A stretch of 63,431 bases of DNA, counting the filler, from Alphaproteobacteria bacterium (GTDB taxonomy: Bacteria; Pseudomonadota; Alphaproteobacteria; Caedimonadales; UBA9215), in assembly GCA_024280495.1 (NCBI GenBank). It is 8 parts of 8 records of this genome, joined end to end, with 100 filler letters (N's around TTAATTAATTAA, not from the genome) between each part and the next. Parts side by side here need not be neighbours in the genome. Positions count along the whole stretch, not along the records: positions 23,398 to 31,401 come from JAJRPZ010000099.1; 7 more parts are not named here. One strand, 5' to 3'. This document shows, piece by piece, positions 1 through 31,501 of the stretch. Every line of letters starts with the position of its first letter. The stretch's first letter is position 1. Under the pieces are notes generated by a model that searched no databases, was not told the DNA's origin, and saw only the letters and a list, made by a program, of their open reading frames with translations. Position numbers and translations under genes: made by a program.

Positions 1-421
1 CTGTTAAAACAGCAGTCTCCCACTTACTATCCCAACCCCTTGAGGACAGAGCTGCTCTTAATTGTAAATAGTGATGAGGTCTTTGCGAGACCATCTCATA
101 TGCTGATGACCTTTACAGCGTTGATTAATAAGACTTTTCACTATTGACTCTGCAAGATTACTTGTAAAAGGAAGGCCTTTTTCTTTGCGGTCGTTACCAT
201 CAACTATTTTCTCGATATTATTTCTAATATAAGCCGTGAACTTAATAAGTTTCGTTGATGCTTTATCAGGATATAACTTTATTTGCTTCTTTAAGCCCAT
301 AAATAAGTCTAGTAAGGAAGAAGGTTTTAATAATACCTTCACATAGGGTATGGCTTATAGATACTGCTGTGGAATCTTCCGTATTGTATGCTTCAAATAT
401 AAGGCGATATGAGAAAGCCAT
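1..421 (-). pseudogene. ISKra4-family transposase remnant (frameshifted, internally deleted)
   Basis: ORF 58-342 contains YIRNN...GLPFTSNLAESIVKSLINQRCKGHQHMRWSR, an ISKra4-type C-terminal motif. Other frames give an N-terminus MAFSYRLIFEAY... from ATG 421 and a C-terminus ...ALSSRGWDSKWETAVLT. Confidence 0.65.
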
Positions 422-542
422 AATGGATATTCCTTCTAAATATGAAACACACCCCTATCACTTTAAAACCTAAATCAACACCTATTATATTACACCTCCA
501 AATTGCCGCAGCAGATTTTTTTCAAAAAAAAACAGATCATTT

Positions 543-15034: not shown

Positions 15035-15102
15035 GGATCTATCATCTTATTAAGGGTAAGTAATGAGTGATTAGCACAAATATTTTTTTTAATCCAGCAT
15101 GG

Positions 15103-16158
15103 TCAATTACCTTTAACTGGCGACGTTTTATTTTCTTTTTTAGGAGACGGAGACGTGGAAGTCGGTTTTTCCAATCCTAAATAATCATAAGCTATATCTG
15201 TCAACATTCGCCCCCGAGAAGTGCGCTGGACAAACCCTTGTTGGATTAGATAGGGTTCGACCACTTCTTCCAAGGTATCTTTCTGCTCCGAAAGAACAGC
15301 AGCCAAAGTCTCGGCACCAACAGGGCCACCTCTATAAACCCGCGCTATATGTTCGAGATAACGGCGATCTTGATCATCCAACCCCATATGATCAACCCCA
15401 AGACGTGATAAAGCATCATCGGCTAGCGCTTTGTCAACAACTGATACCCCTTTAACGGAGGTAAAATCTCGCACCCGACGCAATAAACGTCCCGCGATAC
15501 GCGGGGTGCCCCGAGAGCGCTTGGCGATCTCAAAAATTGCATCTGCTTTCATATCAAGACCCAATAATTTAGCGCCTCGGTGCACGATGGCTGATAAATC
15601 TTCTGGCGAGTAAAAATTCAAGCGCAAAGGAATGCCAAAACGATCCCGTAATGGCGATGTAATAAGTCCTGTTCTGGTCGTTGCTGCAACCAAAGTAAAG
15701 GGGGGTAAATCAATTTGGATGGATCTTGCTGCTGGACCTTCTCCAATAATAAGGTCCAATTTGAAATCTTCCATGGCTGGATAAAGTACTTCTTCAACAG
15801 CTGGGCTCAAGCGGTGAATTTCATCAATAAATAAAACATCAAAAGGCTGCAAGTTTGTCAAAATCGCGGCAAGGTCCCCCGCTTTCGAAATAATAGGGCC
15901 AGAGGTTGATTTAAAACCAACGCCAAGTTCCGTTGAAATAATTTGAGCTAATGTTGTTTTCCCAAGGCCTGGCGGGCCAAAAAACATAACATGATCCATT
16001 GCTTCACCACGCCCTTTGGCTGCCTGGATAAAAACCTTGAGGTTATCACACACATCACGCTGTCCTGTGAAATCATCCAAAAGTTTGGGGCGCATAGAGC
16101 GCTCTTGATGATCTTGTCCTGGTTGAAAATCAGGGGTTAGTATATTTCCTTGCGACAT
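15103..16158 (-). CDS. ruvB: Holliday junction helicase RuvB
   Basis: [25 protein letters not shown]. Confidence 0.98.
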
Positions 16159-16161
16159 TGT

Positions 16162-16794
16162 TTATGCCCTCTTAGTAAGGGTGCGCAACGCGAGTGGAAT
16201 AAGAACTTCGACGGAATCTGCCCCCTCTCCTTTTTGTTTAATCTGAACCAGAGTTTGGTTCACTTCAAAAGGTTTATACCCCAAATTTACAAGGGCGGAG
16301 GCCGCGTCTTGATACACAGATTCGGCGGGCATCGATGAATTTGGAGAAGCGTCTGTAATCACTCCCCCCCCTCCAGCATTCACACCAAAAAGTTTTTTAA
16401 CCTTGTCTTTTAATTCATTGACAAGCCTGGTTGCAAGCTTAGGTCCAACGCCATCTGCCGCGGAAAAAGTCGTTTTATCACCCGATAGAACCGCCGCGTG
16501 CATTTGATCTGGAGACGCAACGGACAAAATAGCTAATGCCACCTTCATACCAACACCCTGAACACTTGTAAGTGTTTGAAACCACTGATGTTCCGATGAC
16601 GTTGAAAAACCATAAAGGGCCATAATGTCTTCACGTACATGCATTTCCGTTATCAATGTGCGCTCTTGACCAACCCCTTGAATTTCATCCAAGGTTCTGG
16701 CCGAACAAAACACATGGTAAAAAACACCATTAACATCCAAAACCGCCCAATTGGGACCTGTCGAATCCAGAACACCGCGAAGTTTTGAAATCAT
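16162..16794 (-). CDS. ruvA: Holliday junction binding protein RuvA
   Basis: MISKLRG, HVRED, LYGF, SVQGVGMKVAL, GVGPKLA. Confidence 0.97.
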   Translation of the reverse strand: MISKLRGVLDSTGPNWAVLDVNGVFYHVFCSARTLDEIQGVGQERTLITEMHVREDIMALYGFSTSSEHQWFQTLTSVQGVGMKVALAILSVASPDQMHAAVLSGDKTTFSAADGVGPKLATRLVNELKDKVKKLFGVNAGGGGVITDASPNSSMPAESVYQDAASALVNLGYKPFEVNQTLVQIKQKGEGADSVEVLIPLALRTLTKRA

Positions 16795-16812
16795 TATTTT
16801 ACCTTTTTAATT

Positions 16813-17295
16813 TTAAGACCCAAAGAGGATATTTTTAGAATCTAGAGTGTGGGCATGGCATATGGCCACTGCCAAAGCATCTGCTTCATCATAGGACATA
16901 TTACCACATGCTGGCAAAAGATATTTCACCATGGCTTTCACCTGGTCTTTATCCGCATGCCCCGCACCCACAACATTCTTTTTTACATGGTTAGCAGAAT
17001 ATTCCCCGACACGAATGCCAAAAGTCGTCGGCACAACCATAACAACCCCCCGAGCCAATCCTAACTTCAAAGTCGTTGAGGGGTTTTTATTAAGAAAAGT
17101 TTCTTCAACGGCGGCTGCTTGGGGAAGGTAAGTCCGCATCACTTCACAAAGGCCACTGTGTAATATTTGCAACCGTTCATCAATATCCAACTGATCACTC
17201 ACTTTAACCGTACCATGGGCAACATGTGTCATTTCACGACCTGCACAGTCAATAATTCCCCATCCAGTGAGACGAAGTCCAGGATCCAATCCCAA
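16813..17295 (-). CDS. ruvC: crossover junction endodeoxyribonuclease (start uncertain)
   Basis: GLDPGLRLTGWG, AVEETF, LGLARG, DEADALAVAICH. Confidence 0.95.
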   Translation of the reverse strand: MGLDPGLRLTGWGIIDCAGREMTHVAHGTVKVSDQLDIDERLQILHSGLCEVMRTYLPQAAAVEETFLNKNPSTTLKLGLARGVVMVVPTTFGIRVGEYSANHVKKNVVGAGHADKDQVKAMVKYLLPACGNMSYDEADALAVAICHAHTLDSKNILFGS

Positions 17296-17420
17296 AATCC
17301 TCTCAGTATTCTGCGATGAATTTTGAAACGGCGTTTTTTTTATAACAGCCTTCCCATTAGAGTTCGAATAATATTGACGGGAAGGGTGAATATAAACAGG
17401 TTTTGAAATGGGATTAGATC

Positions 17421-20998: not shown

Positions 20999-21084
20999 TC
21001 ATTATTTCTGAGAGCATGGTGTTCTCAAAGAAAGGGACCAGGTAGGACCCTTAAAAAAATCGCAGGATGCGAAAGGAATATATT

Positions 21085-22575
21085 ATGACAACAAGTATTA
21101 TGAACAACGCTGCCGCAAACACGGCACTTATTAACCGAGCAAAAGCAACAGTCGATAATAACATAGCCAATAATGAACTTTCTTCTGGTATCACTGACCG
21201 TGGCCCAGCCATTAAATCCCTCGTTGCTGGTTTGAGCGCTTTGAGAGAAGTAACTAATGCCGCACTTGGTAATATCAATAGCTTGTCATCTGTAGGTCAA
21301 TTGGGTATTAAAGTTCTTGATAACATGATTGAGACCGTGGCTTCACTTGATGCCTTGGCAACACAAGCAAACGACGGAACTTTGACTGATAAAGAACGCT
21401 CCCAAATTAACGGTGTGGCCCAAAACCTTCTTAAAGGTCTGGAAACTGCTGCGCAAAAAGCTGAATTTAATGGGACAAAATTCTTCATTGGTTCTGCTGG
21501 TACCGTTGACATTGCTGCTGCAAGCGTCTCATCCTCCACAGCTGCTGTTGTTGTTGATACCTTTGTTGCAGGCATAAAAGGTGATGCAACTGGTGATATA
21601 AGTGGCACATTGACAAGCGCAGAATTCAACTATAACGCAACGGATGGTCGTCTTGATCTAAAAGAAACAATTGGTGGGCAAGTTTTTGAAGCTCTGAATG
21701 TAAACTGGGCAAATGATGCTGAAATCGTATTTGTCAGTATATCAAACCCAAATAACCGTTATACCCGCGTTCTTGGTGCTGATCTTACGACCGTCCCAGT
21801 TAATGACCTGACAGATGCTGCGCATCTTGCTTCTGCAAAAACCGCCTACGAAACGCATACAGGTACTGCTCCTGGTGTCGCTTCAGTTGTGCAAAAGTCT
21901 GTTACAACAGCCGTCAACAATGGTTTAACTGGAATGTCCGTTGGAACTACTGCCGAACCTGGTACTGTTACTGCAAGTTATGATGGCGCGACAAATATCC
22001 TCCATGTTCAACACAAGGATGCGGATGGTGTTATCAAAACACAAAATATTACGATGGATACGGCGGGTGCCCAGGATATCAGCACAAACTTTGGTGTGAC
22101 ATTGACGTTTGATGCTGCTTTCGCCCTTGCTACCAGTGTTACTCAAGTGGTTGGTGTTATTGCCGAAGGTACTGAAGTCAAAATGACATCACAAACAGGT
22201 GCCAATTCCAATGACACAACAACATTGACTTTTAAAGGTGCTACGCTTTCTGCTCTTGGGTTAAGTAATATAAGTTTATCAACGGCAACAGACGCAACAA
22301 CTGCCTCCGATGCTTTCAAGGCTGCACTGGCACTATTAACAGCAAACAAAGCTGATGTTGCCGCTGCCTTGGATAACCTTGAATTGAAAGCTGCGGTATT
22401 GAAGGACACCGCCAATGAGCTTTCTAATGTTATTTCTGGTTTCCAAGATGCTGACATGCCAGCTGCTGCATTGGAGCAAGCCCTCTCCATGCAAAAAATC
22501 GAAAGCGCGGGTATGGGGTTTGCTAAAGCCTTGCAACAAATGCAAATGCTTATGAAAGCCCTCCAACAAGCTTAA
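21085..22575 (+). CDS. flagellin, highly divergent
   Basis: LATQANDGTLTDKERSQIN...AEFNGTK in the N-domain, QTGAN, LSALGL, C-terminal QDADM; Ala/Thr-rich variable middle. Confidence 0.85.
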   Translation: MTTSIMNNAAANTALINRAKATVDNNIANNELSSGITDRGPAIKSLVAGLSALREVTNAALGNINSLSSVGQLGIKVLDNMIETVASLDALATQANDGTLTDKERSQINGVAQNLLKGLETAAQKAEFNGTKFFIGSAGTVDIAAASVSSSTAAVVVDTFVAGIKGDATGDISGTLTSAEFNYNATDGRLDLKETIGGQVFEALNVNWANDAEIVFVSISNPNNRYTRVLGADLTTVPVNDLTDAAHLASAKTAYETHTGTAPGVASVVQKSVTTAVNNGLTGMSVGTTAEPGTVTASYDGATNILHVQHKDADGVIKTQNITMDTAGAQDISTNFGVTLTFDAAFALATSVTQVVGVIAEGTEVKMTSQTGANSNDTTTLTFKGATLSALGLSNISLSTATDATTASDAFKAALALLTANKADVAAALDNLELKAAVLKDTANELSNVISGFQDADMPAAALEQALSMQKIESAGMGFAKALQQMQMLMKALQQA

Positions 22576-23132: not shown

Positions 23133-23161
23133 ATAAAATTAATCACGTTTTTTTAAAAGGG

Positions 23162-23297
23162 CCCCTTCACATGTGAAGTGCGTCATTTGAGTTTTTGGTC
23201 TGGTCTTCGTAAAACACTTCAGTTGGCGTTTTAAAATTAAGGATGCGTCTTGGTCTTGTGTTGAGTAACATTTCGATCTTTTTCACATCCTCTTGAG
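23162..23297 (-). mobile_element. IS30-family transposase C-terminus and right end, cut by contig end
   Basis: Minus strand reads QEDVKKIEMLLNTRPRRILNFKTPTEVF...NDALHM*, matching the LNxRPRxxLxFxTP IS30 motif. Confidence 0.8.
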
Positions 23298-23397
23298 NNN
23301 NNNNNNNNNNNNNNNNNNNNNNNNNNNNNNNNNNNNNNNNNTTAATTAATTAANNNNNNNNNNNNNNNNNNNNNNNNNNNNNNNNNNNNNNNNNNNN
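23298..23397. other. artificial contig spacer
   Basis: N-run + TTAATTAATTAA + N-run. Confidence 0.99.
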
Positions 23398-23483
23398 ATA
23401 ACACGCCCAGAGAATAAAAAGGTATGGAGTGCGGCAGTAAGGCAGGTTTGAAAACCTATGTGCAAAAAAGAAGGGAGATAATC

Positions 23484-24623
23484 ATGAGTTCTATTGCGAA
23501 AACAGTGGATACGCTTGTGCAATCTTTTCAGACCTATCGGGATGAAAATGAGCAGAAGTTTGCAGATCTTGAGACAAACATCGAGACTGAAACAAAAAAA
23601 CAAGAGTTAATAAATAAGCCGCCCGTGGAACGGTCTATACGCGCAACAACAGAAGGGGAGTTTACAATGACGCTATCTCAAGAAAGAGACTATAAAAATG
23701 CATTTCAATCATATGTAAAATGCGGTGAAGAACAAGCTCTTCGAACTTTAGAACGTAAATCTTTATCAACTATGGTCAATGCTGATGGGGGGTACTCCGT
23801 ACCGCAAACCCTGGTTGCAAAACTGGAAGAAGATCTAAGTGATGTGAGTGTTATCCGTCGTTTGTCTAATGTTATGCAAGTGTCTTCAAGCTCTGTTGAT
23901 CTTTTGCTGAATGCTACTGGAGCTGCTGTCGGTTGGGCTGGAGAACAAGATGAACGGGGGGAAACAGATACGCCACACATGCAAAAGTTAGTGGTACCCG
24001 TCCACGAAATGTATGCAAAACCACGTGCAACTCAAAAACTTTTAGATGACGCAAGCATTAATATAGAACAATGGTTGTCTGAATCAGTTTCCCATCGTTT
24101 GGCCGAAGTTGAAAATCATGCCTTCCTTTATGGGGATGGCGATAAAAAACCAACGGGCATTTTAACATACCCAATGGCAGAAGACTCAGAATGGGGCACT
24201 TTTTCCAAGGTGTCTTTTGATGAAAATAATATTATCGATAATTTGGTTGATATGTTTGCAGGTATTGAAGGGCAATACCTTAGTAATGCCGTATGGATGA
24301 TGTCACGTTCAACTTTGGCTCATATTCGCAAGGTTAAAGATCAGGATGGTCGTCATATTTGGCAACCAAGTCTGGATGCAACGTCACCCTCAATGCTTTT
24401 GGGTTACCCCGTAGAGCTTTGTGATGATATGCCAACATTAGGTACCGAAGAAGCTGCATCTATTATCTTTGGTAACTTTGAACGTGCCTATCAAGTGGTC
24501 GACCGTCAAGGCATTAATGTGCTTCGTGATCCATACTCATCAAAGCCATACATTGAATTTTATACAACAAAGCGCGTTGGGGGAGATGTTATTAATTTTG
24601 ATGCTCTCATCATGCTCAAATAG
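23484..24623 (+). CDS. HK97-fold major capsid protein, GTA-type
   Basis: DGGYSVP, HEMYAKPRATQKLLDD, AFLYGDGDKKPTGIL, LRDPYSSKPYIEFYTTKRVGGDV resemble RcGTA-type capsids. Confidence 0.93.
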   Translation: MSSIAKTVDTLVQSFQTYRDENEQKFADLETNIETETKKQELINKPPVERSIRATTEGEFTMTLSQERDYKNAFQSYVKCGEEQALRTLERKSLSTMVNADGGYSVPQTLVAKLEEDLSDVSVIRRLSNVMQVSSSSVDLLLNATGAAVGWAGEQDERGETDTPHMQKLVVPVHEMYAKPRATQKLLDDASINIEQWLSESVSHRLAEVENHAFLYGDGDKKPTGILTYPMAEDSEWGTFSKVSFDENNIIDNLVDMFAGIEGQYLSNAVWMMSRSTLAHIRKVKDQDGRHIWQPSLDATSPSMLLGYPVELCDDMPTLGTEEAASIIFGNFERAYQVVDRQGINVLRDPYSSKPYIEFYTTKRVGGDVINFDALIMLK

Positions 24624-24713
24624 CTTATTAAAGAGGGGTTCTTCTAGAACCTTGATTAAGGTAGACTACAAAAGAGGGATGCATTTCCCTCTTAGACTAT
24701 AGGGAGAAGGAGC

Positions 24714-25328
24714 ATGGCTCTTAGAAAAATCGAGATGTTAGGTGATGAACCCTTGGAAATTTCCTACGTGAAATCTTATTTGCGTATCGAACATGACAAG
24801 GATGACGGCCTTATTGAAGGGTTTATGGCAGCGGCAAGGTCTTCTATTGAAGCCTATACCTCGAGGGCATTGATCCCTCAGAAATGGGAATTGACTTTAA
24901 ATGCGGGTTTTGCCGTTGCAAGAAGTGATCGTACTTATTTGAGTGGGGATAAATCCAGGGGGACTAAAGGTATAGAACTGCCTCGGTCGCCTTTTATGGA
25001 AATGGTGGGAGATCCTATTTTGGAAAGTGATTATGGGCAAAAAAATCTGACGGATTATCGCGTTGATACCTCTGGACGGACTGCGAAAATTCATTTTGGA
25101 CCCAGCGCGCAGGCTATGCTAAATGGAACAGGTAAAATTATTATTCAATTCATAGCAGGGTATAGCGCAAAAAATCTGCCAGATGGATTAAAGCAAGCAA
25201 TACTCATGATCATAGCACAATTATATGAGAATCGTGTTCCCTCAAATGATAATCCAGGCTTGGTTGGTGAATTTAGTGAGAATGTTTCGTTACTTTTACG
25301 ACCTTATCAGGTTAAACGTCTGGCTTAA
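24714..25328 (+). CDS. phage/GTA head-tail connector (gp6-like)
   Basis: EPL...KSYLRIEH..DD.LI...AAR..IE.YT.RALI.Q; F.AGY...LP..LKQAIL.....LYENR; LL.PY. Confidence 0.88.
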   Translation: MALRKIEMLGDEPLEISYVKSYLRIEHDKDDGLIEGFMAAARSSIEAYTSRALIPQKWELTLNAGFAVARSDRTYLSGDKSRGTKGIELPRSPFMEMVGDPILESDYGQKNLTDYRVDTSGRTAKIHFGPSAQAMLNGTGKIIIQFIAGYSAKNLPDGLKQAILMIIAQLYENRVPSNDNPGLVGEFSENVSLLLRPYQVKRLA

Positions 25329-25332
25329 TCAT

Positions 25333-25439
25333 TATAGTCATTCCAAAAAGGTCCCAAATGTCGTCAATCACTCCCGCGCCTATAAGTTATAGGCGTTGGT
25401 CCCTCGCTCCTAGACTTGGACCTTTTTGAAGCGACTATA
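25333..25439 (+). repeat. 107-bp palindromic MITE-like element
   Basis: Terminal IRs TATAGTCATTCCAAAAAGG / CCTTTTTGAAGCGACTATA; internal hairpin CGCCTATAA-G-TTATAGGCG. Confidence 0.88.
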
Positions 25440-25512
25440 GATTTTGGTCTGTCGTCATCTCAATGACTCCCATAAATATGGGCGAGGGTATGGAAAAAAG
25501 AAGGGGATAAGA

Positions 25513-25884
25513 ATGGGGCTAAAAAATAAAATAAATTTTTCAGAATTGAATGATCGTGTCGCCATGGCCAGTATTCACTATGTTGATGATGGATATGGGG
25601 GATTGAAACGTGACTTTTCTGAGGAAAAAAGCTTTTGGGCAGCCGTGACTTTTGTGTCTGCTCGGGACGTTATATCAAAATCTATTAAGGGAATAGATGC
25701 TCAAAAAGGGGCATTAAGAAAATCTATATACCAATTGGTTGTGCGCCAGGAAACAGAGGTAATATCAGAATCCCAACTTTCTTGGAAAGGACGGGTTTTA
25801 AAACCGTTAAATGCCATGGTGCCTTGTGATAAGAGGCAGGGCTACAGTCATTTTTATGCCGTTGAGATCAAAGGGGAGACCTGA
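25513..25884 (+). CDS. putative head-closure / head-tail adaptor protein
   Basis: ELNDRV...DDGYGG......WAAV pattern typical of SPP1 gp16-like proteins; follows the gp6-like gene. Confidence 0.65.
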   Translation: MGLKNKINFSELNDRVAMASIHYVDDGYGGLKRDFSEEKSFWAAVTFVSARDVISKSIKGIDAQKGALRKSIYQLVVRQETEVISESQLSWKGRVLKPLNAMVPCDKRQGYSHFYAVEIKGET

Positions 25885-25885
25885 A

Positions 25886-26248
25886 ATGAAAGGGACTTTA
25901 AAACATCAAGATATTTTTAAAATAATTCAAAAAGGCTTTGAAGCCGACGCTGTTTTACAGGGGGTGCCTCTTGTGACTTATGAGGATCCAAGTTTTAAAG
26001 GAGCTCTTGTTTTATTTGAAGCACAGAAAATTTCAAATGATCTGTTTTACCTAAAGCTTGACGTGAAAAGTTTATATATGGGGAAACTCGAAAAAATTTC
26101 TATACAACAAAGTATACAGTCACTGTTAGTAGAAAATTTTTTTGAGATGAAAAATTATGAATTGGGATTTAAAGAGATCTTGGATAAATCAAAAGAAATT
26201 CTTTGTTATAAGGTAAAGATTTTTCAAAAAGGGAATGAGTTATTATGA
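25886..26248 (+). CDS. hypothetical protein, possibly a diverged tail-completion protein
   Basis: Based on position and size (~120 aa) only; no clear motif. Confidence 0.4.
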   Translation: MKGTLKHQDIFKIIQKGFEADAVLQGVPLVTYEDPSFKGALVLFEAQKISNDLFYLKLDVKSLYMGKLEKISIQQSIQSLLVENFFEMKNYELGFKEILDKSKEILCYKVKIFQKGNELL

Positions 26249-26484
26249 ATTTATTAAAAGAAAGATCTTCGGCTCGCCGTGTCAATTTATTTCAAAATCA
26301 TAGTGAAGACTTTGGTCCAGACTTTGATAATGATAATTTACAAACAGTGCTAGGGGAGAAATTTGTGAGTGATTTCGAACAAGAAGAGTTATTAAGTGAA
26401 ATTTTAGGGCAGCAACTCAGACGTTTGCATGGAGGCGTTGAAAATCATCACAGGCTTAAACCACGGTGGCTTTATGACTTTTAA
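26245..26484 (+). CDS. hypothetical protein in the phage-like cluster
   Basis: 79-aa ORF overlapping the previous stop (ATGA coupling). Confidence 0.5.
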   Translation: MNLLKERSSARRVNLFQNHSEDFGPDFDNDNLQTVLGEKFVSDFEQEELLSEILGQQLRRLHGGVENHHRLKPRWLYDF

Positions 26485-26537
26485 GATGAGAATATTTAAA
26501 AAATGTTTTAAAGAAGTTTTTAATATTTGGGGGAACT

Positions 26538-27041
26538 ATGGAAACAGTTTTAGAAATTAAGGGAATAGGGTTTCCAGCATTTTCTTGCCGTGATGTAAAG
26601 CAAACCCTTGTACCCATCGCAACGGGTGAGATGTGTCGGACTGTCAATGGTGAATTGCGCCATATTGGCTCTCAAAATCATAAGAAATTTAAAACAACTT
26701 TGCGCTGTCATGATCAGGCTTTGCCAGGGATGCAGCAGTCTTGGGTGGGGGCCCCTTTGACCGTTCATTGTGTGTCAATACTATTTGAGCAATTCGAAAG
26801 TGATGAGTTAGTAAAACTCTCGAGAGCCCCCGTGCCAGGATCCGTTTCAGTGATGAATTACCTTGGGCATAAAGTCTCTTTCGAAATAGAAGGAGATTGC
26901 ATTCTTTCTCATGAAAGTCCTCAAGGAATTTTACGTATAAGCTATCGCCCTATCCTTGAAATGCGACTTATATCTTTCGAGATGCAAGAGCAAGAGTGGG
27001 GCGATGGTGCTTCTTGGCAAATGTTATTGGAAGAAATTTAA
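26538..27041 (+). CDS. hypothetical phage-type protein, possible distal tail component
   Basis: QTL.PI..GEM.RTVNGEL...K.KTT..C.DQ..P pattern recalls alphaproteobacterial prophage tail-region proteins (recalled, not searched). Confidence 0.5.
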   Translation: METVLEIKGIGFPAFSCRDVKQTLVPIATGEMCRTVNGELRHIGSQNHKKFKTTLRCHDQALPGMQQSWVGAPLTVHCVSILFEQFESDELVKLSRAPVPGSVSVMNYLGHKVSFEIEGDCILSHESPQGILRISYRPILEMRLISFEMQEQEWGDGASWQMLLEEI

Positions 27042-28054
27042 TTTTTCTTACGGACCTTTATTTCATACCAGGCAATAAGGGCAGTTGAAAGTATGATAAT
27101 ACCAGCACCAGAAAACGTCCAGATGGTGGGGATTTCTGCATAAAGAAAATACCCAAAGAATCCAGCAAAAATAAGTTCCGTATAACGATAAGGCGCAAGG
27201 GAAGAAACATCCGTCGCGGCGAAGGCTTTGAGCAAAAAGAAAAGAATGAGGTTGCCGCCAGCACCAAGGAGCACAAGATAAAATAATTCATCCATGGTGG
27301 GCATTACAAAAACTGGATAGGCAAAAAATGAGGCGAAAATAGCCGTTCCAAGGGCGATATAAAATAGCATGGAAAGATTAGATTCTTTGCTGACATATTT
27401 TTTATTAACTATATCACTGAGGGCAAAGGCTATGGCAGCTCCAAGAAGCATCCAGATTCCTGTTAAAACATGAGGGGCAGTATTGCTTTGGAGAGTAAGA
27501 CTTTGAAAAAGGGTGTCTGTATCTGTGACCGAGCCGTGCATAATGACAAAAATACCGATGACACCAAGAATTGTAGCTAGGGTGCGTTGCCACCCAACAC
27601 GTTCTTTTAGAAAAAGAGATGCCATAGGTAATACAAAGAGAGGCACTGTTAGGGCATAGATGCTCATAACAGTGAGAGGGACAAGTTTAACGGCGCCAGC
27701 CCACGATAAAATAGCAACAAAAAGAAGAAGGGAACGAATGATGTGCAGACCAGGGCGTTCGGTTTTAAAGGCTGTTTTGTACTTTACCAACATAATGGGC
27801 AAAAGGGTTATGAGCGCAAAAAAGTAACGAAAAAAGGTGACTTCTTGGGCAGGGAGTCTTGAGGCTTCACGCATGAGAATATCGTTCATGTTACTGGTGA
27901 GAGCAACGAGGGTGATCCAAAATACACCCTGAGCATAACCAGGTTTCAAAAACCACGAGGTGGACTTGTTACAGTTGGCAGGGAGCGGGATCTTTGACAT
28001 GGCGTTTAAAACTTTAATTTGAAAAATATTATTTAACGTATCGGATTTGATCAC
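27038..28054 (-). CDS. DMT/EamA transporter, Rickettsia SAM-uptake (Sam) type
   Basis: About 10 TM helices; EVTFFRYFF, KTERPGLHIIRSLLLF, DIVNKKYVSKES..SMLFY, LILFFLLKAF, APYRY.EL match rickettsial Sam as recalled. Confidence 0.75.
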   Translation of the reverse strand: MIKSDTLNNIFQIKVLNAMSKIPLPANCNKSTSWFLKPGYAQGVFWITLVALTSNMNDILMREASRLPAQEVTFFRYFFALITLLPIMLVKYKTAFKTERPGLHIIRSLLLFVAILSWAGAVKLVPLTVMSIYALTVPLFVLPMASLFLKERVGWQRTLATILGVIGIFVIMHGSVTDTDTLFQSLTLQSNTAPHVLTGIWMLLGAAIAFALSDIVNKKYVSKESNLSMLFYIALGTAIFASFFAYPVFVMPTMDELFYLVLLGAGGNLILFFLLKAFAATDVSSLAPYRYTELIFAGFFGYFLYAEIPTIWTFSGAGIIILSTALIAWYEIKVRKKN

Positions 28055-28082
28055 ATAAATCCAAGGAAAAGAGGAGGGGGTA

Positions 28083-29807
28083 ATGCAATTTCATTTTGCA
28101 TGGATTAAAGAAGGGGATGTTTTTTGTTCTAAAACCCATTGCCATGAGGGGGAAAAGGTTTTTTCTTTTCAAATATTCGAATCTGAAGGCGCCCTTCCAA
28201 AGGCAAAAATTCGTATTGAGGCTTCCCCTGACAAAAGTGTGGATGGTACGCATTTTATTCTTTTATTAGAGGAGAATTGTTTATTCAAAGGACAAGTTAC
28301 TCATGTTTCTTTTGAAAAACAGGGGCGTATTGCGGTGCTCCATTGCATTGGTTTCGATGCCATTATTGGCGACGGGTTGGAAGCATTACGTGCTGATCTA
28401 TCAAATGACCCAGGGGTAGAGCCTTTATTTATGACCCCTCAAAAAAGGGCGGAGCCGGAACTTTGGGAAATTCCAGATTTATTGCTCCATCGTCCTGAAA
28501 TAGTTTATATACCTCGTGATTTATCAAAAATATCTTTGGTTCCTTTAGTGCCAAAACAAGAATATTTCACTTTTGATGTATCAGATATTTATTATGTAGA
28601 TTCCTTAAGACATGTCAGTAAATCATCTAAATATCAATCCGTATCCATTGTTTTAAAGGCTGATTGGATTCAGCGTTACAGCGGTACTACTGATATTACT
28701 CAGGCTTTGAGAGAGCGGTTATCACTGAGAGGGATAGAAACTTTTACGGCCATAGAATTCCAAAATAAATGGTGGCGAACCAATCACAGATTTGGTGTTA
28801 GTGGGTACCGAGTTGAAGATACGTCTATAAATATTTTGGGAGTGGGTCGTGAAATACCTTTTGATGATTTATCAGAAAGGTCCCAAGAAAAACTTGCGCG
28901 GCGCCATAGCTCTGGAAAAATTAAAGAAGGCCTTACCTTAAAGTCAACGGTTCTGCAGCCAAATATGTCCCTTTCCTGGCGATATATACAACCTCGCCGT
29001 GAAGAAGTTCGTTTGACTTTTTCAGGAAATGAGATACTGGATTCGGAAGTGAAAAAAATCACATTAAAGTTGAGAAATCTAACGGATAAAAAAAATATTC
29101 TTCATTGGTCTCCTGATATTTATTATCAACAGGGGGAATGGGTGGATGTAGAAGACGTTCTTTATTTATGTAGTGTTTCCCATAGATCTACCTTTAATTT
29201 TTTCAATGATGACAGTTTTTGGCGGTTGAAAGGTCCCCGTCAATCTTATCCCCTCCTTGAAAATCAGGGAATGTTTTTTGAAACAAAACGAGGACAAGAA
29301 GTTATTCATGCTGCTGCGGATATTGCCCGTGTCTATCAAATGGCGTTGGAAAGATCCCATGAGATTTCTTTTCAGTGTGCTCTTGGAGAAGCACTTCATC
29401 TTTCAACGTCTTCTTTTATAAAAATTCCAGGTGAAGAAAATCTTCTAGGCAAGGTAACGAAGCTTTGTTTTGAAGCACTGGGTAACCAAGGGCGTTTTCG
29501 AGCTTATGTTACGGTTTCTTGTGTTGATATGACGATTATTCATAAGGACGTTTCTTGTAAAGACTCTTATGACCTCATTCTTTTGGAAGAAAAAGGAAAT
29601 AGAGGGCATAAAGAACCGCACCTTTTTTCAGGAAATGAACTTTTGAAAGAAGTAATAGTTCGACATGGGGCCGACGAACAACTTTCTCAATTGCAAGAAG
29701 AGGATACCGAAATATCAAGTGGTATTCAAGGAACTCAGGTGCGATTGCACTTAGAGGATCTTCGCACGAGAGAGGCGAGTCTAACGCGCTATGGCGTAAA
29801 AATATAG
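28083..29807 (+). CDS. large hypothetical protein, putative tail-tip/hub protein
   Basis: 574 aa with a strong SD; N-terminal F.FAW...E.VFSF.I...EG pattern recalled from prophage tail regions; internal CBM-like segment. Confidence 0.5.
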   Translation: MQFHFAWIKEGDVFCSKTHCHEGEKVFSFQIFESEGALPKAKIRIEASPDKSVDGTHFILLLEENCLFKGQVTHVSFEKQGRIAVLHCIGFDAIIGDGLEALRADLSNDPGVEPLFMTPQKRAEPELWEIPDLLLHRPEIVYIPRDLSKISLVPLVPKQEYFTFDVSDIYYVDSLRHVSKSSKYQSVSIVLKADWIQRYSGTTDITQALRERLSLRGIETFTAIEFQNKWWRTNHRFGVSGYRVEDTSINILGVGREIPFDDLSERSQEKLARRHSSGKIKEGLTLKSTVLQPNMSLSWRYIQPRREEVRLTFSGNEILDSEVKKITLKLRNLTDKKNILHWSPDIYYQQGEWVDVEDVLYLCSVSHRSTFNFFNDDSFWRLKGPRQSYPLLENQGMFFETKRGQEVIHAAADIARVYQMALERSHEISFQCALGEALHLSTSSFIKIPGEENLLGKVTKLCFEALGNQGRFRAYVTVSCVDMTIIHKDVSCKDSYDLILLEEKGNRGHKEPHLFSGNELLKEVIVRHGADEQLSQLQEEDTEISSGIQGTQVRLHLEDLRTREASLTRYGVKI

Positions 29808-29816
29808 GAGAGCACT

Positions 29817-30692
29817 ATGAGTATTGAACAATATATTAGGGAGTCTATTAAATGTTTTTTGGAGGACGGTCAGGTAGAAAATAATCTTCAAAATACTGAA
29901 GGAAACACACAAAATGGTTTTTTAGACATGGAGTCTTATAAGTCTTTCGAGCTAGGAATACCAAAAAATCCTAAACATCAATTTATGGTTCTTGATTTTG
30001 AAGTTCACCCTTTGTTTTTGAAAGATATTATGCCTGATTATTCTTTTTTGTATTCAGTGGTGGGATTAGGGCGGCATCCTACACTTTTTTCAGCCGTGCC
30101 AGGAAGTATACCAAGTTTCTGTGTTTCAAAAATACAATTGAGGTGTTTAGGGAAGGGGTATTATCAAGATGTCAATGCCCTTGAAACAGGATTTGGTGAA
30201 AGCCTTGAGATAACAGAGGATATTAATTTTACGATTCCCTTTTCTATTCCTCCAGGTGGAGGATTTGACTTACGTGTAGAAGCACAGCCCAATGGCAGTG
30301 CTGCATATTCCTGTGATATGTGGGAGGGGAGCCGTCTTCAAGAAAAACCACTTATACCATTTGGTGGCTATTTGGACCCAATCTTGGATTTTGCTAAAGT
30401 CGTTCCTATGCTGGGAACCCTTCGGGGGGGAGCTCAAACTAATGTTGGTATTAAGTCAGTGAATTTTTGGGTCAGCCGTGGATTATCTAACACGGCACCA
30501 GCACTGGAGGGAGATCATCGTTATTCTGTGGTTGGGGAGGGGGAAGATATATTTAAATCCTCTCTGGCTCAGCAAATACAACAAGGTGTTTTTAAAATTT
30601 CCCTTCAAGGGCACGATTATGAATCCAGGGAATATAGTGTTCTGGACCCTTTTAATCGACGTATTCAAATGAGCTTTATAGCAGTGGACTAA
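29817..30692 (+). CDS. hypothetical protein in the phage-like cluster
   Basis: 291 aa, AGGAG SD, 9 bp after the previous gene. Confidence 0.6.
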   Translation: MSIEQYIRESIKCFLEDGQVENNLQNTEGNTQNGFLDMESYKSFELGIPKNPKHQFMVLDFEVHPLFLKDIMPDYSFLYSVVGLGRHPTLFSAVPGSIPSFCVSKIQLRCLGKGYYQDVNALETGFGESLEITEDINFTIPFSIPPGGGFDLRVEAQPNGSAAYSCDMWEGSRLQEKPLIPFGGYLDPILDFAKVVPMLGTLRGGAQTNVGIKSVNFWVSRGLSNTAPALEGDHRYSVVGEGEDIFKSSLAQQIQQGVFKISLQGHDYESREYSVLDPFNRRIQMSFIAVD

Positions 30693-30721
30693 ATATAAAA
30701 ATATGCTTTTTAAAAAGGGAG

Positions 30722-31150
30722 ATGGTTATGAAGGAATTAGAAATAGATGTAGTGGCACGTACAATTTTTGGAGAAGCACGGGGAGAGTATTACAGACCAG
30801 ACGGGGGAATTTCAGCACTCATAAGCGTTGCAAATGTGATGCGTAATCGTTTGGAGGGCTCTAAACGATTCGGAAAAACTTATCAAGAAGTTTGTCGCAA
30901 ACCCTATCAATTTTCCTGTTGGAACCCACGAGATCCTAATGCTCATTTAGTTGCGCGTATACAAAAGGGAGAAGATAGGCTTTTTGATATTTGCTTGAAA
31001 GTTGCAGAAAATGTTATCCATGGGGCTTGGCCAGATATCACTTCTGGTGCCAACCATTATCATGCCTCTTGGATGAATACTTATCCTGCTTGGGCTATGG
31101 GAGTTGTTCCCTCCTATAGGTGCGGTCAACATATCTTTTATAAATTATAA
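30722..31150 (+). CDS. cell wall hydrolase (Hydrolase_2/SleB-like), probable endolysin
   Basis: VARTIFGEARGE, VANVMRNR, PYQFSCWN..DPN, GANHYHA, P.WA, HIFY. Confidence 0.9.
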   Translation: MVMKELEIDVVARTIFGEARGEYYRPDGGISALISVANVMRNRLEGSKRFGKTYQEVCRKPYQFSCWNPRDPNAHLVARIQKGEDRLFDICLKVAENVIHGAWPDITSGANHYHASWMNTYPAWAMGVVPSYRCGQHIFYKL

Positions 31151-31162
31151 AAGGAGAGCATT

Positions 31163-31401
31163 ATGAGTTTGACAATTATGGGGGTGGCAAGCGCCCTTGC
31201 AGATCTTGTGCCTGGTGTTGCAAGGTGGTTTACCAATGACCCAAAGGACATTGATCGTACCAAGACCATTGCACAAAAAGTTATTAATATTGCAAAAAAA
31301 ATTACGGGTAAAAATGATGCTGCCAAAGCACTGTCCGTTTTAGAGGCCAATCCAAAAGCATTGATGGAATTTCAAAAAGCTATTTTATCAATGGAACGAG
31401 A
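31163..31401 (+). CDS. putative holin-like protein, 3'-truncated
   Basis: Directly follows the hydrolase; LVPGVARWF...IAKKITG...NP.ALMEFQ resembles the N-terminus of phage/GTA 3TM-holin-associated proteins. Confidence 0.5.
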
Positions 31402-31501
31402 NNNNNNNNNNNNNNNNNNNNNNNNNNNNNNNNNNNNNNNNNNNNTTAATTAATTAANNNNNNNNNNNNNNNNNNNNNNNNNNNNNNNNNNNNNNNNNNN
31501 N
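31402..31501. other. artificial contig spacer
   Basis: N-run + TTAATTAATTAA + N-run. Confidence 0.99.

What the first reader, a model, noticed from the sequence alone, without database searches (positions are those of the whole stretch)
23484..31401. Domesticated GTA-like particle cluster with a non-canonical tail-tip module
Seen: a co-oriented run of GTA-type HK97 capsid, gp6-like connector, head-closure gene, five unassigned ORFs (about 120, 79, 167, 574 and 291 aa), a cell-wall hydrolase and a holin-like gene. All ORFs are open, and no integrase, replication or repressor gene is on the contig. Established: the RcGTA order is capsid, adaptors, tail terminator, tail tube, chaperones, tape measure, DUF2460, hub, NlpC/P60, megatron. 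Inference: the head half is RcGTA-like but the distal half is a different gene set. This suggests a hybrid, host-domesticated particle in a probable endosymbiont and is the best candidate for an undescribed system here.
Basis: partly seen in the sequence, partly recalled or inferred. Interest (0 to 1): 0.75.

Follow-up and report, generated by a model that had tools for sequence, protein, structure and literature searches.

The report
Holosporales gene-transfer-agent cluster, stubby tail tip
This is the chromosomal, phage-derived "gene transfer agent" cluster already reported from Holosporales endosymbionts, and its unnamed downstream genes look like a very short tail tip rather than a missing tail.

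Summary
The ORFs are real, but the "window" is a chain of MAG contigs. The finding is one whole 8,004-bp contig (23398-31401). Portal and protease lie on contig C4, the end of the last gene on C73, and a lone large terminase on C67.

The same gene order recurs in relatives titled Caedibacter, Caedimonas, Odyssella and Holosporaceae. It is flanked by host genes, and every gene is under purifying selection. George et al. 2022 (PMC9254644) already described this as the reduced Holosporaceae GTA, whose tail was "missing or undetected". It is therefore not an undescribed system.

What is new here:
- The 145-aa ORF belongs, by a chain of similarity, to a tail-terminator family.
- The 167-aa protein has a tail-tube/distal-tail fold.
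- The 574-aa protein is a one-piece gp27/Mu gp44-type baseplate hub with a CBM5/12-like insert.
- No tail tube, tape measure or RcGTA g12-g15 families were found in five genomes.

The 291-aa protein stays unassigned.

Best reading: a domesticated DNA-packaging particle with a stubby tail that lacks a tube. This scan reached the hub reading earlier on another genome (e1-2396997).

The parts
23398..31401 (.). Whole contig C28 of the MAG. It is the middle piece of the cluster: portal and protease lie on C4, and the end of the last gene lies on C73.
   Evidence: Contig mapping and N spacers. Portal, protease and last-gene matches on C4 and C73.
23424..24623 (+). HK97-type major capsid protein, RcGTA-like. 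The real start is probably the ATG at 23484.
   Evidence: PF05065 E 8.3e-78. TIGR01554 E 3.8e-103. Best PDB relative is the RcGTA capsid, E 3.5e-70. Relatives align from residue 9-21 onward.
24714..25328 (+). Head-tail adaptor (gp6-like, RcGTA g6 equivalent).
   Evidence: PF05135 E 7.2e-13. TIGR02215 E 3e-25. phrog_442 E 3.5e-20. RcGTA Rcc01688 E 0.0031.
25444..25884 (+). Head-completion / stopper protein (RcGTA g7 equivalent). The real start is probably an inner ATG.
   Evidence: PF05521 E 6.3e-6, 27.2 bits against a cut-off of 25. A family HMM built without the window's own genus and family scores it at E 6.7e-17.
25811..26248 (+). Probable tail terminator / tail-completion protein (RcGTA g8 equivalent), fast-evolving. 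About 120 aa if it starts at the ATG at 25886.
   Evidence: The evidence is indirect. BLASTP to the same-genus positional orthologue gives E 8e-8 over 110 aa. 20 of 39 members of that family match PF11367 Tail_completion_gp17, best E 5.3e-10. The window's own copy matches neither Pfam nor a family HMM built without its close kin.
26245..26484 (+). Small 79-aa protein of unknown role, with a conserved C-terminal P-R-W..W/F motif. It is present in only part of the lineage.
   Evidence: 0 Pfam/PHROG families. In 16 of 38 loci a comparable 40-73-aa ORF lies between the terminator-like and 167-aa genes. In most of the other loci those two genes abut or overlap. dN/dS is 0.07 and 0.28 in two pairs.
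26538..27041 (+). Tail-tube-fold protein, best read as the distal tail protein (Dit; functional equivalent of RcGTA g12).
   Evidence: AF2 model with pLDDT 92.0 and pTM 0.83. The only chain of 48,161 with Z >= 8 is 8gtc_G of roseophage R4C's baseplate-tail complex (Z 8.3, 154 aligned). Dit and tube proteins follow at Z 5.5-7.4. It sits directly before the hub gene. No Pfam family in 0 of 44 members.
27038..28054 (-). EamA/DMT-family transporter, a host gene nested antisense inside the cluster. It is not part of the particle.
   Evidence: PF00892 E 8.3e-29. It lies between the two tail genes in 34 of the 39 loci that have both. dN/dS median 0.058.
28083..29807 (+). Baseplate hub protein in one piece (gp27 / Mu gp44 / VgrG-type fold, residues about 1-485). 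It carries a CBM5/12-like carbohydrate-binding insert at about residues 340-390.
   Evidence: AF2 model with pLDDT 68.7. Foldseek gives 16 PDB matches at E <= 0.001, all hubs or spikes. VIA gives 55 chains with Z >= 8, top Z 14.1. The CBM insert scores Z 6.8, rmsd 2.0 over 47 residues. The top Atlas cluster is 'Tip attachment protein J domain', score 0.98.
29817..30692 (+). 291-aa conserved protein of unknown fold. Inferred tail-tip component, with no direct evidence.
   Evidence: 0 Pfam/PHROG/NCBIfam families. 0 of 31 family members have a relevant Pfam match. No usable Atlas hit. 343 representative clusters at E <= 0.001 among 1.84 billion proteins. dN/dS median 0.169. Its position after the hub is fixed.
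30722..31150 (+). SleB-type cell-wall hydrolase (Hydrolase_2). It stands where RcGTA has an NlpC/P60 peptidase.
   Evidence: PF07486 E 1.5e-15. phrog_938 'endolysin' E 1.8e-16. dN/dS median 0.043.
31163..31401 (+). N-terminal 79 codons of an approximately 178-aa membrane protein (holin-like), cut by the contig end.
   Evidence: phrog_1544, unknown function, E 9.5e-9. The C-terminal half lies at the end of C73. Orthologues have one strongly hydrophobic segment at about residues 106-135 and an invariant FEFGSSR motif. dN/dS median 0.042.

Best explanation
This is the vertically inherited, phage-derived GTA-type cluster of a Holosporales-type alphaproteobacterium. In this MAG it is spread over three contigs.

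Gene order:
- portal and prohead protease (contig C4)
- capsid, adaptor, stopper, terminator-like protein, a small 79-aa protein, a Dit-like protein, an antisense EamA host gene, the hub, a 291-aa unknown, a SleB-type hydrolase and the start of a membrane protein (contig C28, which is the finding)
- the rest of the membrane protein (contig C73)
- a solitary large terminase among housekeeping genes (contig C67)

Proposed mechanism:
1. The terminase packages DNA into an HK97-type head through the portal.
2. The adaptor, stopper and terminator rings close the portal.
3. Instead of a tube built on a tape measure, the ring of Dit-like protein stacks directly on the terminator. It carries a trimeric one-piece hub whose CBM5/12-like insert binds a surface glycan.
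4. The hydrolase and the membrane protein act either as an endolysin-holin pair that releases particles, or as the wall-piercing enzyme of the tip.

Shown: gene content, gene order, conservation, purifying selection, the folds of two tail-tip proteins, and the failure to find tube, tape-measure and g12-g15 families.
Inferred: that the products assemble into one particle, that the tail has no tube, what the particle carries, and what it binds.
For: Lineage and gene order:
- Relatives of the 574-aa protein occur in 24 of 41 genomes searched, including 21 of 22 of the same order.
- Six 20-kb loci from four families show the same order.
- Of 48 capsid-anchored loci with at least 8 kb downstream, 39 have both the 167-aa and 574-aa genes, and 34 of those have EamA between them.
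- Record titles name Caedibacter acanthamoebae, Caedimonas, Odyssella and Holosporaceae.
- Flanks in relatives are host genes: PolA, a GNAT acetyltransferase, an ABC-transporter binding protein and ALAD. No integrase is present.

Head module:
- Capsid to RcGTA capsid, E 3.5e-70.
- Portal PF04860 E 1.1e-82, protease PF04586 E 7.4e-35, and TerL with Terminase_6N and 6C domains.
- TerL homologues occur in 20 of 22 same-order genomes.

Tail tip:
- Hub fold with Z up to 14.1 and 55 chains at Z >= 8 (Foldseek).
- The 167-aa model has pLDDT 92, and its best structural match is the 214-aa chain of R4C's baseplate-tail complex, Z 8.3.
- 20 of 39 members of the terminator-like family match PF11367.
- In locus L141, PF11367 is followed directly by DUF2460, hub and megatron genes with no tube or tape measure between. 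A terminator-to-Dit arrangement therefore also occurs with a canonical tip.

Selection (Nei-Gojobori dN/dS medians): 167-aa 0.126; 574-aa 0.136; 291-aa 0.169; hydrolase 0.043; membrane protein 0.042; capsid 0.071.

Capsid tree: the 57 capsids from loci with these tail genes fall on one side of a branch (SH-aLRT 92), apart from 6 prophage capsids.

Canonical families not found in G000, G001, G005, G008 and G012: PF06199, PF09343 (only two 40-residue sub-threshold hits in G008), PF09931 and PF13550.

Literature: George et al. 2022 report the same head clusters, expression and purifying selection. The Table S3 rows I saw for Odyssella, Caedimonas and Bodocaedibacter stop at or before g8.
Against: - No particle has been seen. 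George et al. examined over 850 endosymbiont cells by TEM and found none.
- The Dit call rests on a fold shared by tube, terminator, Dit and Hcp proteins. Z 8.3 is at the level the tool gives as a typical best score for models without a clear match. The Foldseek TM-scores are low, 0.3-0.44. That 8gtc chain G is the Dit is my inference from chain lengths in PMC10276861. The 167-aa protein could instead be a one-ring tail tube.
- The hub model is only moderately confident (pLDDT 68.7, pTM 0.47).
- The window's own 145-aa ORF is tied to the terminator family only through a weak pairwise match. A family HMM built without its close kin does not hit it.
- The 291-aa and 79-aa proteins have no assignment at all.
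- Absence of tube and tape measure was tested with a few Pfam models and tblastn from five prophage loci only. Diverged versions could be missed, and this MAG is 89% complete.
- No small terminase was identified.
- The dN/dS pairs share ancestry and are not independent.
Confidence: 0.6

Rival explanations
1. The particle is repurposed and no longer transfers DNA between bacteria. The head plus a stubby adhesive tip serves host interaction or cargo storage and delivery, as George et al. 2022 suggested. The CBM5/12-like hub insert would then bind a eukaryotic-host glycan or another non-bacterial glycan.
For: - The lineage consists of obligate symbionts with small, clonal populations, where gene transfer between bacteria is hard to justify (discussion in PMC9254644).
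- Neither the canonical membrane-penetrating megatron nor a tape measure was found.
- A CBM5/12-like module sits in the hub, and a separate 120-208-aa CBM protein occurs in many relatives (PF02839 E 5.8e-6 in L017; HMM cross-hits).
Against: - An intact large terminase with ATPase and nuclease domains is retained in 20 of 22 same-order genomes. That is hard to explain without DNA packaging.
- Carbohydrate-binding modules are common in ordinary phage tips, for example in R4C's hub and megatron.
- There is no cargo or effector gene in the cluster.
Confidence: 0.2
2. The distal genes (167-aa to membrane protein) are not part of the head's particle. They would be a separate, co-located module, for example a remnant tail tip used alone or a cell-wall remodelling/lysis cassette. 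The heads would then be tail-less.
For: - A host gene on the opposite strand separates the two halves in 34 of 39 loci, so they need separate promoters.
- In Caedibacter acanthamoebae the 167-aa/EamA/574-aa genes lie far from the capsid.
- In L075 and L078 the cluster is rearranged.
Against: - The 167-aa Dit-like gene stays with the neck genes, on the head side of the EamA gene, while its expected partner, the hub, is on the other side. The split therefore runs through a functional unit, not between two.
- Even in the rearranged loci L075 and L078, most of the gene families are retained (no hydrolase match there).
- Capsids from loci that carry the tail genes are monophyletic.
- Selection on both halves is of similar strength.
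Confidence: 0.12
3. It is an ordinary decaying prophage fragment without function.
For: - The tail gene set is incomplete.
- The terminase is detached.
- A host gene and a dispersed 105-bp repeat are inserted in the cluster.
- In some relatives single genes are broken, for example the capsid split in L026 and the hub split in L138.
Against: - The same gene order occurs in 21 of 22 same-order genomes and beyond.
- All ORFs are open here.
- dN/dS is 0.04-0.23 for every gene.
- No integrase or lysogeny genes are in the flanks examined.
- The capsids form one clade consistent with vertical descent.
Confidence: 0.04

Closest known systems
Reduced GTA clusters of Holosporaceae endosymbionts (George et al. 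2022, Genome Biol Evol, PMC9254644)
   Same: - Same lineage and same head module: portal, protease, capsid, adaptor, plus or minus stopper and terminator.
- One cluster with conserved gene order.
- The large terminase is encoded elsewhere.
- Purifying selection.
- Unknown genes lie downstream of the adaptor.
   Different: That paper lists no distal tail, hub or later components in the Holosporaceae rows I saw (Table S3 passages). It calls the tail missing or undetected. Here the downstream genes receive structural assignments (Dit-like, hub with a CBM insert), and the nested EamA gene is noted.
RcGTA of Rhodobacter capsulatus (head-tail cluster g1-g15; structures 6TBA, 6TE9 and others). The gene order is recalled from memory and checked against a canonical locus, L135.
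   Same: - Homologous capsid (E 3.5e-70), adaptor, stopper, terminator family and a T4-type terminase (Terminase_6N/6C).
- Chromosomal and lacking lysogeny genes.
- The functional order neck, Dit, hub, wall hydrolase.
   Different: - No tail tube, chaperones, tape measure, DUF2460, PF09931/PF09356 hub, NlpC/P60 peptidase or megatron were found.
- The hub is one gp27-like polypeptide rather than a g13 + g15 pair.
- The hydrolase is SleB-type.
- The terminase is not beside the portal.
- A host transporter gene lies inside the cluster.
Central baseplate hubs: T4 gp27, Mu gp44, T6SS VgrG N-terminal part, siphophage Tal/BHP such as T5 pb3
   Same: The fold of residues about 1-485 of the 574-aa protein matches: Z 14.0 to Mu gp44, 10.6-11.0 to T4 gp27, 11.3 to T5 pb3 and 13.4 to VgrG1.
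   Different: - No detectable sequence similarity (3-12% identity across the hub matches).
- A CBM5/12-like domain is inserted.
- There is no needle, OB-fold spike or long C-terminal fibre.
- It is encoded in a cluster without tube or sheath genes.
Distal tail proteins (Dit) of siphophages: R4C/RcGTA g12 type, T5 pb9, SPP1 gp19.1
   Same: - The 167-aa protein has the tube-like beta-sandwich fold: Z 8.3 to the R4C chain, 6.5 to pb9 and 5.5 to SPP1 Dit.
- Its gene lies immediately upstream of the hub gene.
   Different: - No sequence or profile similarity to DUF2460.
- It is shorter (167 against about 210 aa).
- A tail-tube identity cannot be excluded from the fold alone.
Small-cluster GTA loci with a canonical tip but no tube or tape measure between terminator and Dit (locus L141, genome G172; compare the Rickettsiales pattern described by George et al.)
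   Same: - The terminator gene is followed directly by the Dit gene.
- A host gene (an MCP chemoreceptor) is inserted in the cluster.
- Its capsid groups next to the Holosporales-type capsids.
   Different: L141 keeps recognisable DUF2460, a PF09931/PF09356 hub and a 1,134-aa megatron. The Holosporales type has none of these.

Membership tests
RcGTA-like gene transfer agent (alphaproteobacterial head-tail cluster) | HK97-type capsid, portal, protease and large terminase homologous to RcGTA g2-g5 | tested here: met
   Capsid to Rcc01687, E 3.5e-70. Portal PF04860 1.1e-82, protease PF04586 7.4e-35, TerL with Terminase_6N/6C as in the canonical locus L135.
RcGTA-like gene transfer agent (alphaproteobacterial head-tail cluster) | Chromosomal and vertically inherited, without integrase, replication or lysogeny genes | tested here: met
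   Host genes flank the cluster in the same-genus, same-family and same-order loci examined. The gene order recurs in 21 of 22 same-order genomes. The capsids form one clade. Only 20-kb flanks were inspected.
RcGTA-like gene transfer agent (alphaproteobacterial head-tail cluster) | Complete tail set: tube g9, chaperones, tape measure g11, DUF2460 g12, hub g13, NlpC/P60 g14, megatron g15 | tested here: not met
   PF06199, PF09343, PF09931 and PF13550 are not over cut-off in G000, G001, G005, G008 and G012. tblastn from five prophage tail modules found nothing. The hydrolase is PF07486, not NlpC/P60.
RcGTA-like gene transfer agent (alphaproteobacterial head-tail cluster) | Particles package random host DNA in pieces too small to carry the cluster, and transfer it | not testable with these tools
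   Needs particles. No RNA or particle data were obtained (one search listed no RNA holder).
Holosporaceae-type reduced GTA cluster (George et al. 2022) | Single head cluster with conserved gene order, large terminase encoded elsewhere, no RcGTA tail homologues detectable by sequence, purifying selection | tested here: met
   Paper text read. Table S3 passages seen.
Baseplate hub (gp27 / Mu gp44 / VgrG-N fold) | Four-domain hub fold covering most of the protein | tested here: met
   55 chains with Z >= 8, top 14.1, aligned range 1..480-490. 16 Foldseek matches at E <= 0.001, all hubs or spikes. The model's pLDDT is only 68.7.
Baseplate hub (gp27 / Mu gp44 / VgrG-N fold) | Forms a trimer that plugs a hexameric Dit or tube ring | not tested
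   No multimer model could be run. The complex-prediction queue was full at every attempt.
Distal tail protein (Dit) | Tube-like beta-sandwich core and a gene immediately upstream of the hub/Tal gene | tested here: inconclusive
   The fold match to Dit chains is best but modest: Z 8.3, then 5.5-7.4, with tube proteins at 5.7-6.1. The position criterion is met. There is no sequence link to DUF2460.
Tail terminator / Tail_completion_gp17 (PF11367; RcGTA g8) | Sequence membership of the 145-aa ORF | tested here: inconclusive
   20 of 39 positional orthologues match PF11367. The window's copy does not match it, and a family HMM built without its close kin does not hit it. It matches its same-genus orthologue at E 8e-8.
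Holin | Small membrane protein with one or more transmembrane helices, encoded beside an endolysin | tested here: inconclusive
   One strong hydrophobic segment and a second weak one in the 178-aa orthologues. It is adjacent to the Hydrolase_2 gene. The only family match is phrog_1544, of unknown function.
Intact temperate prophage | Integrase, repressor, replication genes and a full tail module next to the head genes | tested here: not met
   None in the flanks of relatives. The prophage loci found with the same capsid query (L083, L089, L092) carry 721-853-aa tape measures and tube genes that this cluster lacks.

The most novel reading that the evidence does not exclude
Holosporales-type GTAs may be siphovirus-derived particles that lost the tail tube and tape measure altogether. 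The terminator ring would dock straight onto a Dit-like ring and a one-piece hub carrying a CBM module. This would be a 'zero-length' non-contractile tail assembled without a tape measure. The optional 40-79-aa protein with the C-terminal P-R-W motif would be the last vestige of a tape measure or a lumen plug. Such a particle could deliver DNA, or other cargo, across a single envelope contact. In an intracellular symbiont its target might not be a bacterium.
Probability: 0.35. Interest if true: 0.7.

Novelty: new member of a known kind. Interest (0 to 1): 0.42.

Why it matters
The published account of Holosporaceae GTAs left open whether their tails are lost or only unrecognisable. That question decides whether these particles can still deliver anything.

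Four observations point to a working but radically shortened tail rather than to tail-less heads:
- The conserved unknown genes include a hub and a tube/Dit-fold protein.
- These genes are under purifying selection.
- They travel with the neck genes across the order.
- No tube or tape measure was found.

This gives cryo-EM, particle proteomics and binding assays of the CBM-bearing hub concrete targets. If confirmed, it would be a natural example of a siphovirus-type tail assembled without a tape measure. For the window itself the result is a re-annotation of a known system, not a new one.

Tried and rejected
- Profile searches of the 167-aa, 291-aa and 145-aa families against PDB sequences gave nothing meaningful.
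- hhalign of the 167-aa family against a canonical DUF2460 protein, and of the 291-aa and 574-aa families against a canonical g13 hub, found no similarity (probabilities 0.1-0.5%, single-sequence templates).
- The idea that the 291-aa protein is the RcGTA/R4C 291-aa hub was dropped. The profiles do not match, and the family alignment has no conserved four-cysteine set.
- For the 291-aa protein: no usable Atlas hit; the word-indexed homology search returned 2 proteins; 0 of 25 sampled distant relatives carry an informative Pfam domain.
- A 718-aa fused form (P0032) is not a hub fusion.
- PF03354 TerL_ATPase was not found. It was the wrong terminase family: the terminase here is Terminase_6N/6C.
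- A CtrA-type TTAA-N7-TTAA pattern near the portal gene occurs at chance level (4 found, 4.63 expected).
- Sigma-70-like promoters and terminators in the contig are at chance level (19 against 19.3, and 10 against 7.7).
- Sequencing runs: one DNA holder with a small share of words, and no RNA holder listed.
- The search for related loci with the hub alignment failed for lack of a conserved stretch. The capsid alignment was used instead.
- Same-genome notes of this scan held nothing relevant.

Full report
**What the window is.** The 63-kb window is not one piece of DNA. It holds seven pairs of 44-N runs. BLAST of the laid genome shows it is eight contigs of a 99-contig, 1,140,619-bp MAG placed end to end; the MAG is 89.3% complete. 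The finding (23484-31401) is contig C28 in full: 8,004 bp, window 23398-31401. The TrkA and flagellin-like genes before it belong to C26. The OmpH-LpxD-FabZ-LpxA genes after it belong to C29. Adjacency to either is not shown. 'No integrase on the contig' therefore carries little weight.

**The observation.** The listed ORFs exist and are open. Pfam assigns four of them:
- capsid: PF05065, E 8.3e-78
- gp6-like adaptor: PF05135, E 7.2e-13
- head-completion protein: PF05521, E 6.3e-6
- Hydrolase_2 wall hydrolase: PF07486, E 1.5e-15

The 145-, 79-, 167-, 574-, 291- and 96-aa ORFs get nothing. PHROGs agrees, and gives only phrog_1544 (unknown function) for the last ORF. The last ORF runs into the contig end.

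**The rest of the cluster in this genome.**
- Portal (422 aa, PF04860 E 1.1e-82) and prohead protease (176 aa, PF04586 E 7.4e-35) lie on the 3.2-kb contig C4, pointing towards its end.
- The missing C-terminal half of the last gene lies at the end of C73, followed by the same GNAT acetyltransferase gene as in the same-genus locus.
- The likely order is therefore C4 (reversed), C28, C73 (reversed).
- C4 ends in a copy of a roughly 105-bp dispersed repeat. At least 15 near-full copies at 87-94% identity occur in the genome, which probably caused the assembly break between protease and capsid.
- A 445-aa large terminase (Terminase_6N E 4.9e-28, Terminase_6C E 5.1e-10) stands alone on C67, among NADH-dehydrogenase, cytochrome b561 and thioredoxin-like genes.

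**Relatives.** The 574-aa protein has relatives in 24 of 41 genomes searched, G000 included. That is 21 of 22 genomes of the same order and 2 of 18 others. Six 20-kb loci from four families show this order: portal, protease, capsid, adaptor, stopper, a 113-140-aa gene, sometimes a 66-79-aa gene, the 167-aa gene, EamA antisense, the 574-640-aa gene, a roughly 300-aa gene, often a 120-208-aa CBM5/12 protein, Hydrolase_2, and a 178-aa gene. Host genes lie on both sides.

A scan of species-representative genomes with a capsid alignment returned 78 loci. Their titles include Caedibacter acanthamoebae, Caedimonas, Odyssella thessalonicensis, Holosporales and Holosporaceae. Of the 48 loci with at least 8 kb downstream of the capsid:
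- 39 carry both the 167-aa and 574-aa families, and 34 of those have EamA between them.
- 8 carry neither. Five of these are ordinary prophages with tube genes and 721-853-aa tape measures. The other three are L026, L027 and L061.

The lineage also extends to small genomes that the genome collection places in other families of the class.

**Already published.** George et al. 2022 (PMC9254644; I read parts 1-3 of the main text) describe GTA clusters across Rickettsiales and Holosporaceae. In Holosporaceae they report:
- a single head/portal cluster with conserved gene order
- the large terminase elsewhere
- evidence of transcription, and dN/dS below 1
- no particles in more than 850 cells examined by TEM

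[quoted passage not shown] In the passages of their Table S3 that I saw, the Odyssella, Caedimonas and Bodocaedibacter rows stop at or before g8. I did not read the whole table.

Two full-text searches returned no paper assigning these downstream genes: 'Holosporales' + 'gene transfer agent', and 'gene transfer agent' + 'Holosporaceae' + 'tail'. The 2025 Holosporales review cites only the 2022 paper. A third search, with tail-tube and tape-measure terms, returned only a paper on Rhodobacter phages, which I did not open.

An earlier follow-up in this scan (e1-2396997, another genome) independently read the corresponding gene as a tail hub.

**The unknown genes.**

*574-aa protein.* An AlphaFold model built from 7 sequences has pLDDT 68.7. 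Foldseek gives 16 PDB matches at E <= 0.001, all central hubs or spikes of contractile injection systems, Mu-like phages or T6SS. A second alignment pass gives 55 chains at Z >= 8, all over model residues about 1-485:

| Match | Z |
|---|---|
| PVC hub | 14.1 |
| Mu gp44 | 14.0 |
| VgrG1 | 13.4 |
| T5 pb3 | 11.3 |
| T4 gp27 | 10.6-11.0 |

Residues 340-390 align to the CBM5/12 module of a Vibrio chitin deacetylase (Z 6.8, rmsd 2.0 A, 47 residues, 23% identity). The protein-language-model atlas puts the protein next to clusters auto-named 'Tip attachment protein J domain', in which 14-19% of members carry PF02839. The HMM of the separate small CBM protein cross-hits the hub family.

*167-aa protein.* A model from 44 sequences has pLDDT 92.0 and pTM 0.83, and is all-beta. 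Of 48,161 representative chains, only one reaches Z 8: chain G (214 aa) of the R4C roseophage baseplate-tail complex (Z 8.3, 154 residues aligned). It is followed by baseplate, Dit and tube-fold proteins at Z 5.5-7.4, including T5 pb9, SPP1 Dit, lambda gpM and the R4C tube. By the component sizes given in PMC10276861, the 214-aa chain should be the Dit: the hub is 291 aa, the fibre 230, the megatron 1,447 and the tube chain 130. That identification is my inference. Foldseek also lists RcGTA neck and tube chains and phage PhiJL001 gp83 weakly. The fold class is clear. The choice of Dit over a single tube ring rests on best coverage and on the gene's place directly before the hub.

*145-aa ORF.* 20 of 39 positional orthologues match PF11367 Tail_completion_gp17 (best E 5.3e-10), and the family HMM hits the annotated terminator of a prophage. 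The window's copy itself matches only its same-genus orthologue (E 8e-8). It is missed by an HMM built without its close kin.

*79-aa ORF.* Equivalents of 40-73 aa, ending in a P-R-W..W/F motif, occur in 16 of 38 loci. In most of the other loci the two flanking genes abut or overlap.

*291-aa protein.* No assignment by Pfam, PHROGs, NCBIfam, PDB profile search or the atlas. It belongs to a family of 343 representative clusters, nearly all 270-320 aa.

*Last gene.* The orthologues (178 aa) have one strongly hydrophobic segment, a second weaker glycine-rich one, and an invariant C-terminal FEFGSSR motif. Together with the adjacent SleB-type hydrolase this looks like an endolysin-holin pair, but that is inference.

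**What is missing.** These were not found over cut-off in G000, G001, G005, G008 and G012:
- PF06199, tail tube
- PF09343, DUF2460 / g12 (two 40-residue sub-threshold hits in G008 only)
- PF09931, hub g13
- PF13550, megatron

tblastn with all ORFs of five prophage loci found only terminase, portal, protease, capsid and adaptor in this genome. A canonical GTA locus (L135) found with the same capsid query shows the expected set: a 236-aa putative tape measure, DUF2460, a PF09931+PF09356 hub, NlpC/P60 and a 1,315-aa megatron. Another locus (L141) has PF11367 followed directly by DUF2460, hub and megatron with no tube or tape measure between. A terminator-to-Dit junction is therefore not unique to Holosporales. 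These are limited tests; diverged tube or tape-measure genes elsewhere are not excluded.

**Selection and descent.** Nei-Gojobori dN/dS on 11 close locus pairs, counting pairs with dS between 0.02 and 2, gives these medians:

| Gene | Median dN/dS |
|---|---|
| portal | 0.061 |
| capsid | 0.071 |
| adaptor | 0.111 |
| stopper | 0.175 |
| terminator-like | 0.223 |
| 167-aa | 0.126 |
| EamA | 0.058 |
| 574-aa | 0.136 |
| 291-aa | 0.169 |
| CBM protein | 0.231 |
| hydrolase | 0.043 |
| membrane protein | 0.042 |

The pairs are phylogenetically related, so the counts overstate independence.

In a 67-row capsid tree (IQ-TREE quick search, LG+G4), the 57 capsids from loci carrying the 167-aa or 574-aa genes fall on one side of a branch (SH-aLRT 92, not starred). 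Next to them are L141 and L136. The six prophage capsids and two canonical GTA capsids lie on the other side. I left out capsids shorter than 340 aa and loci that could not be typed. The window's capsid groups with its genus (support 100). The terminase has intact homologues in 20 of 22 same-order genomes.

**Reading.** The cluster is the Holosporales form of the alphaproteobacterial GTA.

Shown:
- gene content and order-wide conservation of gene order
- host flanks and purifying selection
- an RcGTA-like head and neck
- a hub-fold protein and a tube/Dit-fold protein in the 'unknown' half
- no detectable tube, tape measure or g12-g15 families

Inferred:
- the products form one particle with a stubby tail (terminator, Dit ring, hub)
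- the retained terminase fills it with DNA
- the CBM insert mediates adhesion
- the hydrolase and membrane protein lyse the producer cell or breach the target wall

Rivals are a particle repurposed for host interaction, a distal module functionally separate from the heads, and a dead remnant. The last is poorly compatible with the conservation data.

**Verdict.** The system is already described in print, and this scan has met it before. The added value is the structural reading of the tail tip.

Noticed in passing
window 2995-3094, 23298-23397, 31402-31501, 39046-39145, 44939-45038, 48172-48271, 60346-60445: Each junction is 44 N + 12 bases + 44 N. The window is eight MAG contigs (C25, C26, C28-C32, C46) laid end to end, so gene neighbourhoods across these points are not real evidence.
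   Followed up: yes
G000:C4:1-107 (contig not in the window); copies on C13, C36, C42, C44, C64, C67, C68, C69, C73, C75, C81, C92: A roughly 105-bp dispersed repeat with an internal inverted repeat (at least 15 near-full copies, 87-94% identical) lies just downstream of the prohead protease gene, at the contig break before the capsid. It looks like a MITE/REP-type element family of this genome.
   Followed up: partly
window 23160-23297 (end of C26): A 138-bp stretch is identical or nearly identical at the ends of contigs C13, C14, C69, C97, C49 and C94. It is a repeat boundary that breaks the assembly, possibly an IS or rRNA edge.
   Followed up: no
L141 (G172:C1:892000-911000), 7186-17393: A GTA-type locus in a 2.06-Mb genome has PF11367 (terminator) followed directly by DUF2460, a PF09931/PF09356 hub and a 1,134-aa megatron. 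No tube or tape-measure gene lies between them. A methyl-accepting chemotaxis gene is inserted upstream of the terminator.
   Followed up: partly
L075, L078, L133 (rearranged loci): In one sublineage the cluster is reshuffled. Portal, adaptor, stopper, terminator-like and 167-aa genes come first, then several unrelated genes, then protease, capsid, hub, the roughly 300-aa gene, the CBM protein and the membrane protein. Most families are kept; no hydrolase match there.
   Followed up: no
L016 and L026 (Caedibacter acanthamoebae CP008936): Here the 167-aa/EamA/574-aa trio lies about 160 kb from the capsid. The capsid matches two ORFs (234 + 126 aa), and no 291-aa, hydrolase or membrane-protein match follows the hub. 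This may be a decaying copy of the system.
   Followed up: no
L020/L036 (G003), locus positions about 12050-13120 of L020: tblastn finds the EamA gene at 69% identity over 303 residues, but no long ORF exists there. It is a possible pseudogene or an assembly error in that genome.
   Followed up: no
window 21067-22575 (+), contig C26: A 502-aa ORF has a weak Flagellin_N match (E 1.3e-5, 25.8 bits, just under the 26.6 cut-off). It may be a hook-associated or flagellin-like protein in a reduced genome.
   Followed up: no
window 26245-26484 and small ORFs in 16 related loci: Small proteins of 40-79 aa lie between the terminator-like and Dit-like genes. They share a helical L..E.LE..LR motif and end in P-R-W followed by W or F at the very C-terminus. 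They are absent where the two flanking genes overlap.
   Followed up: partly
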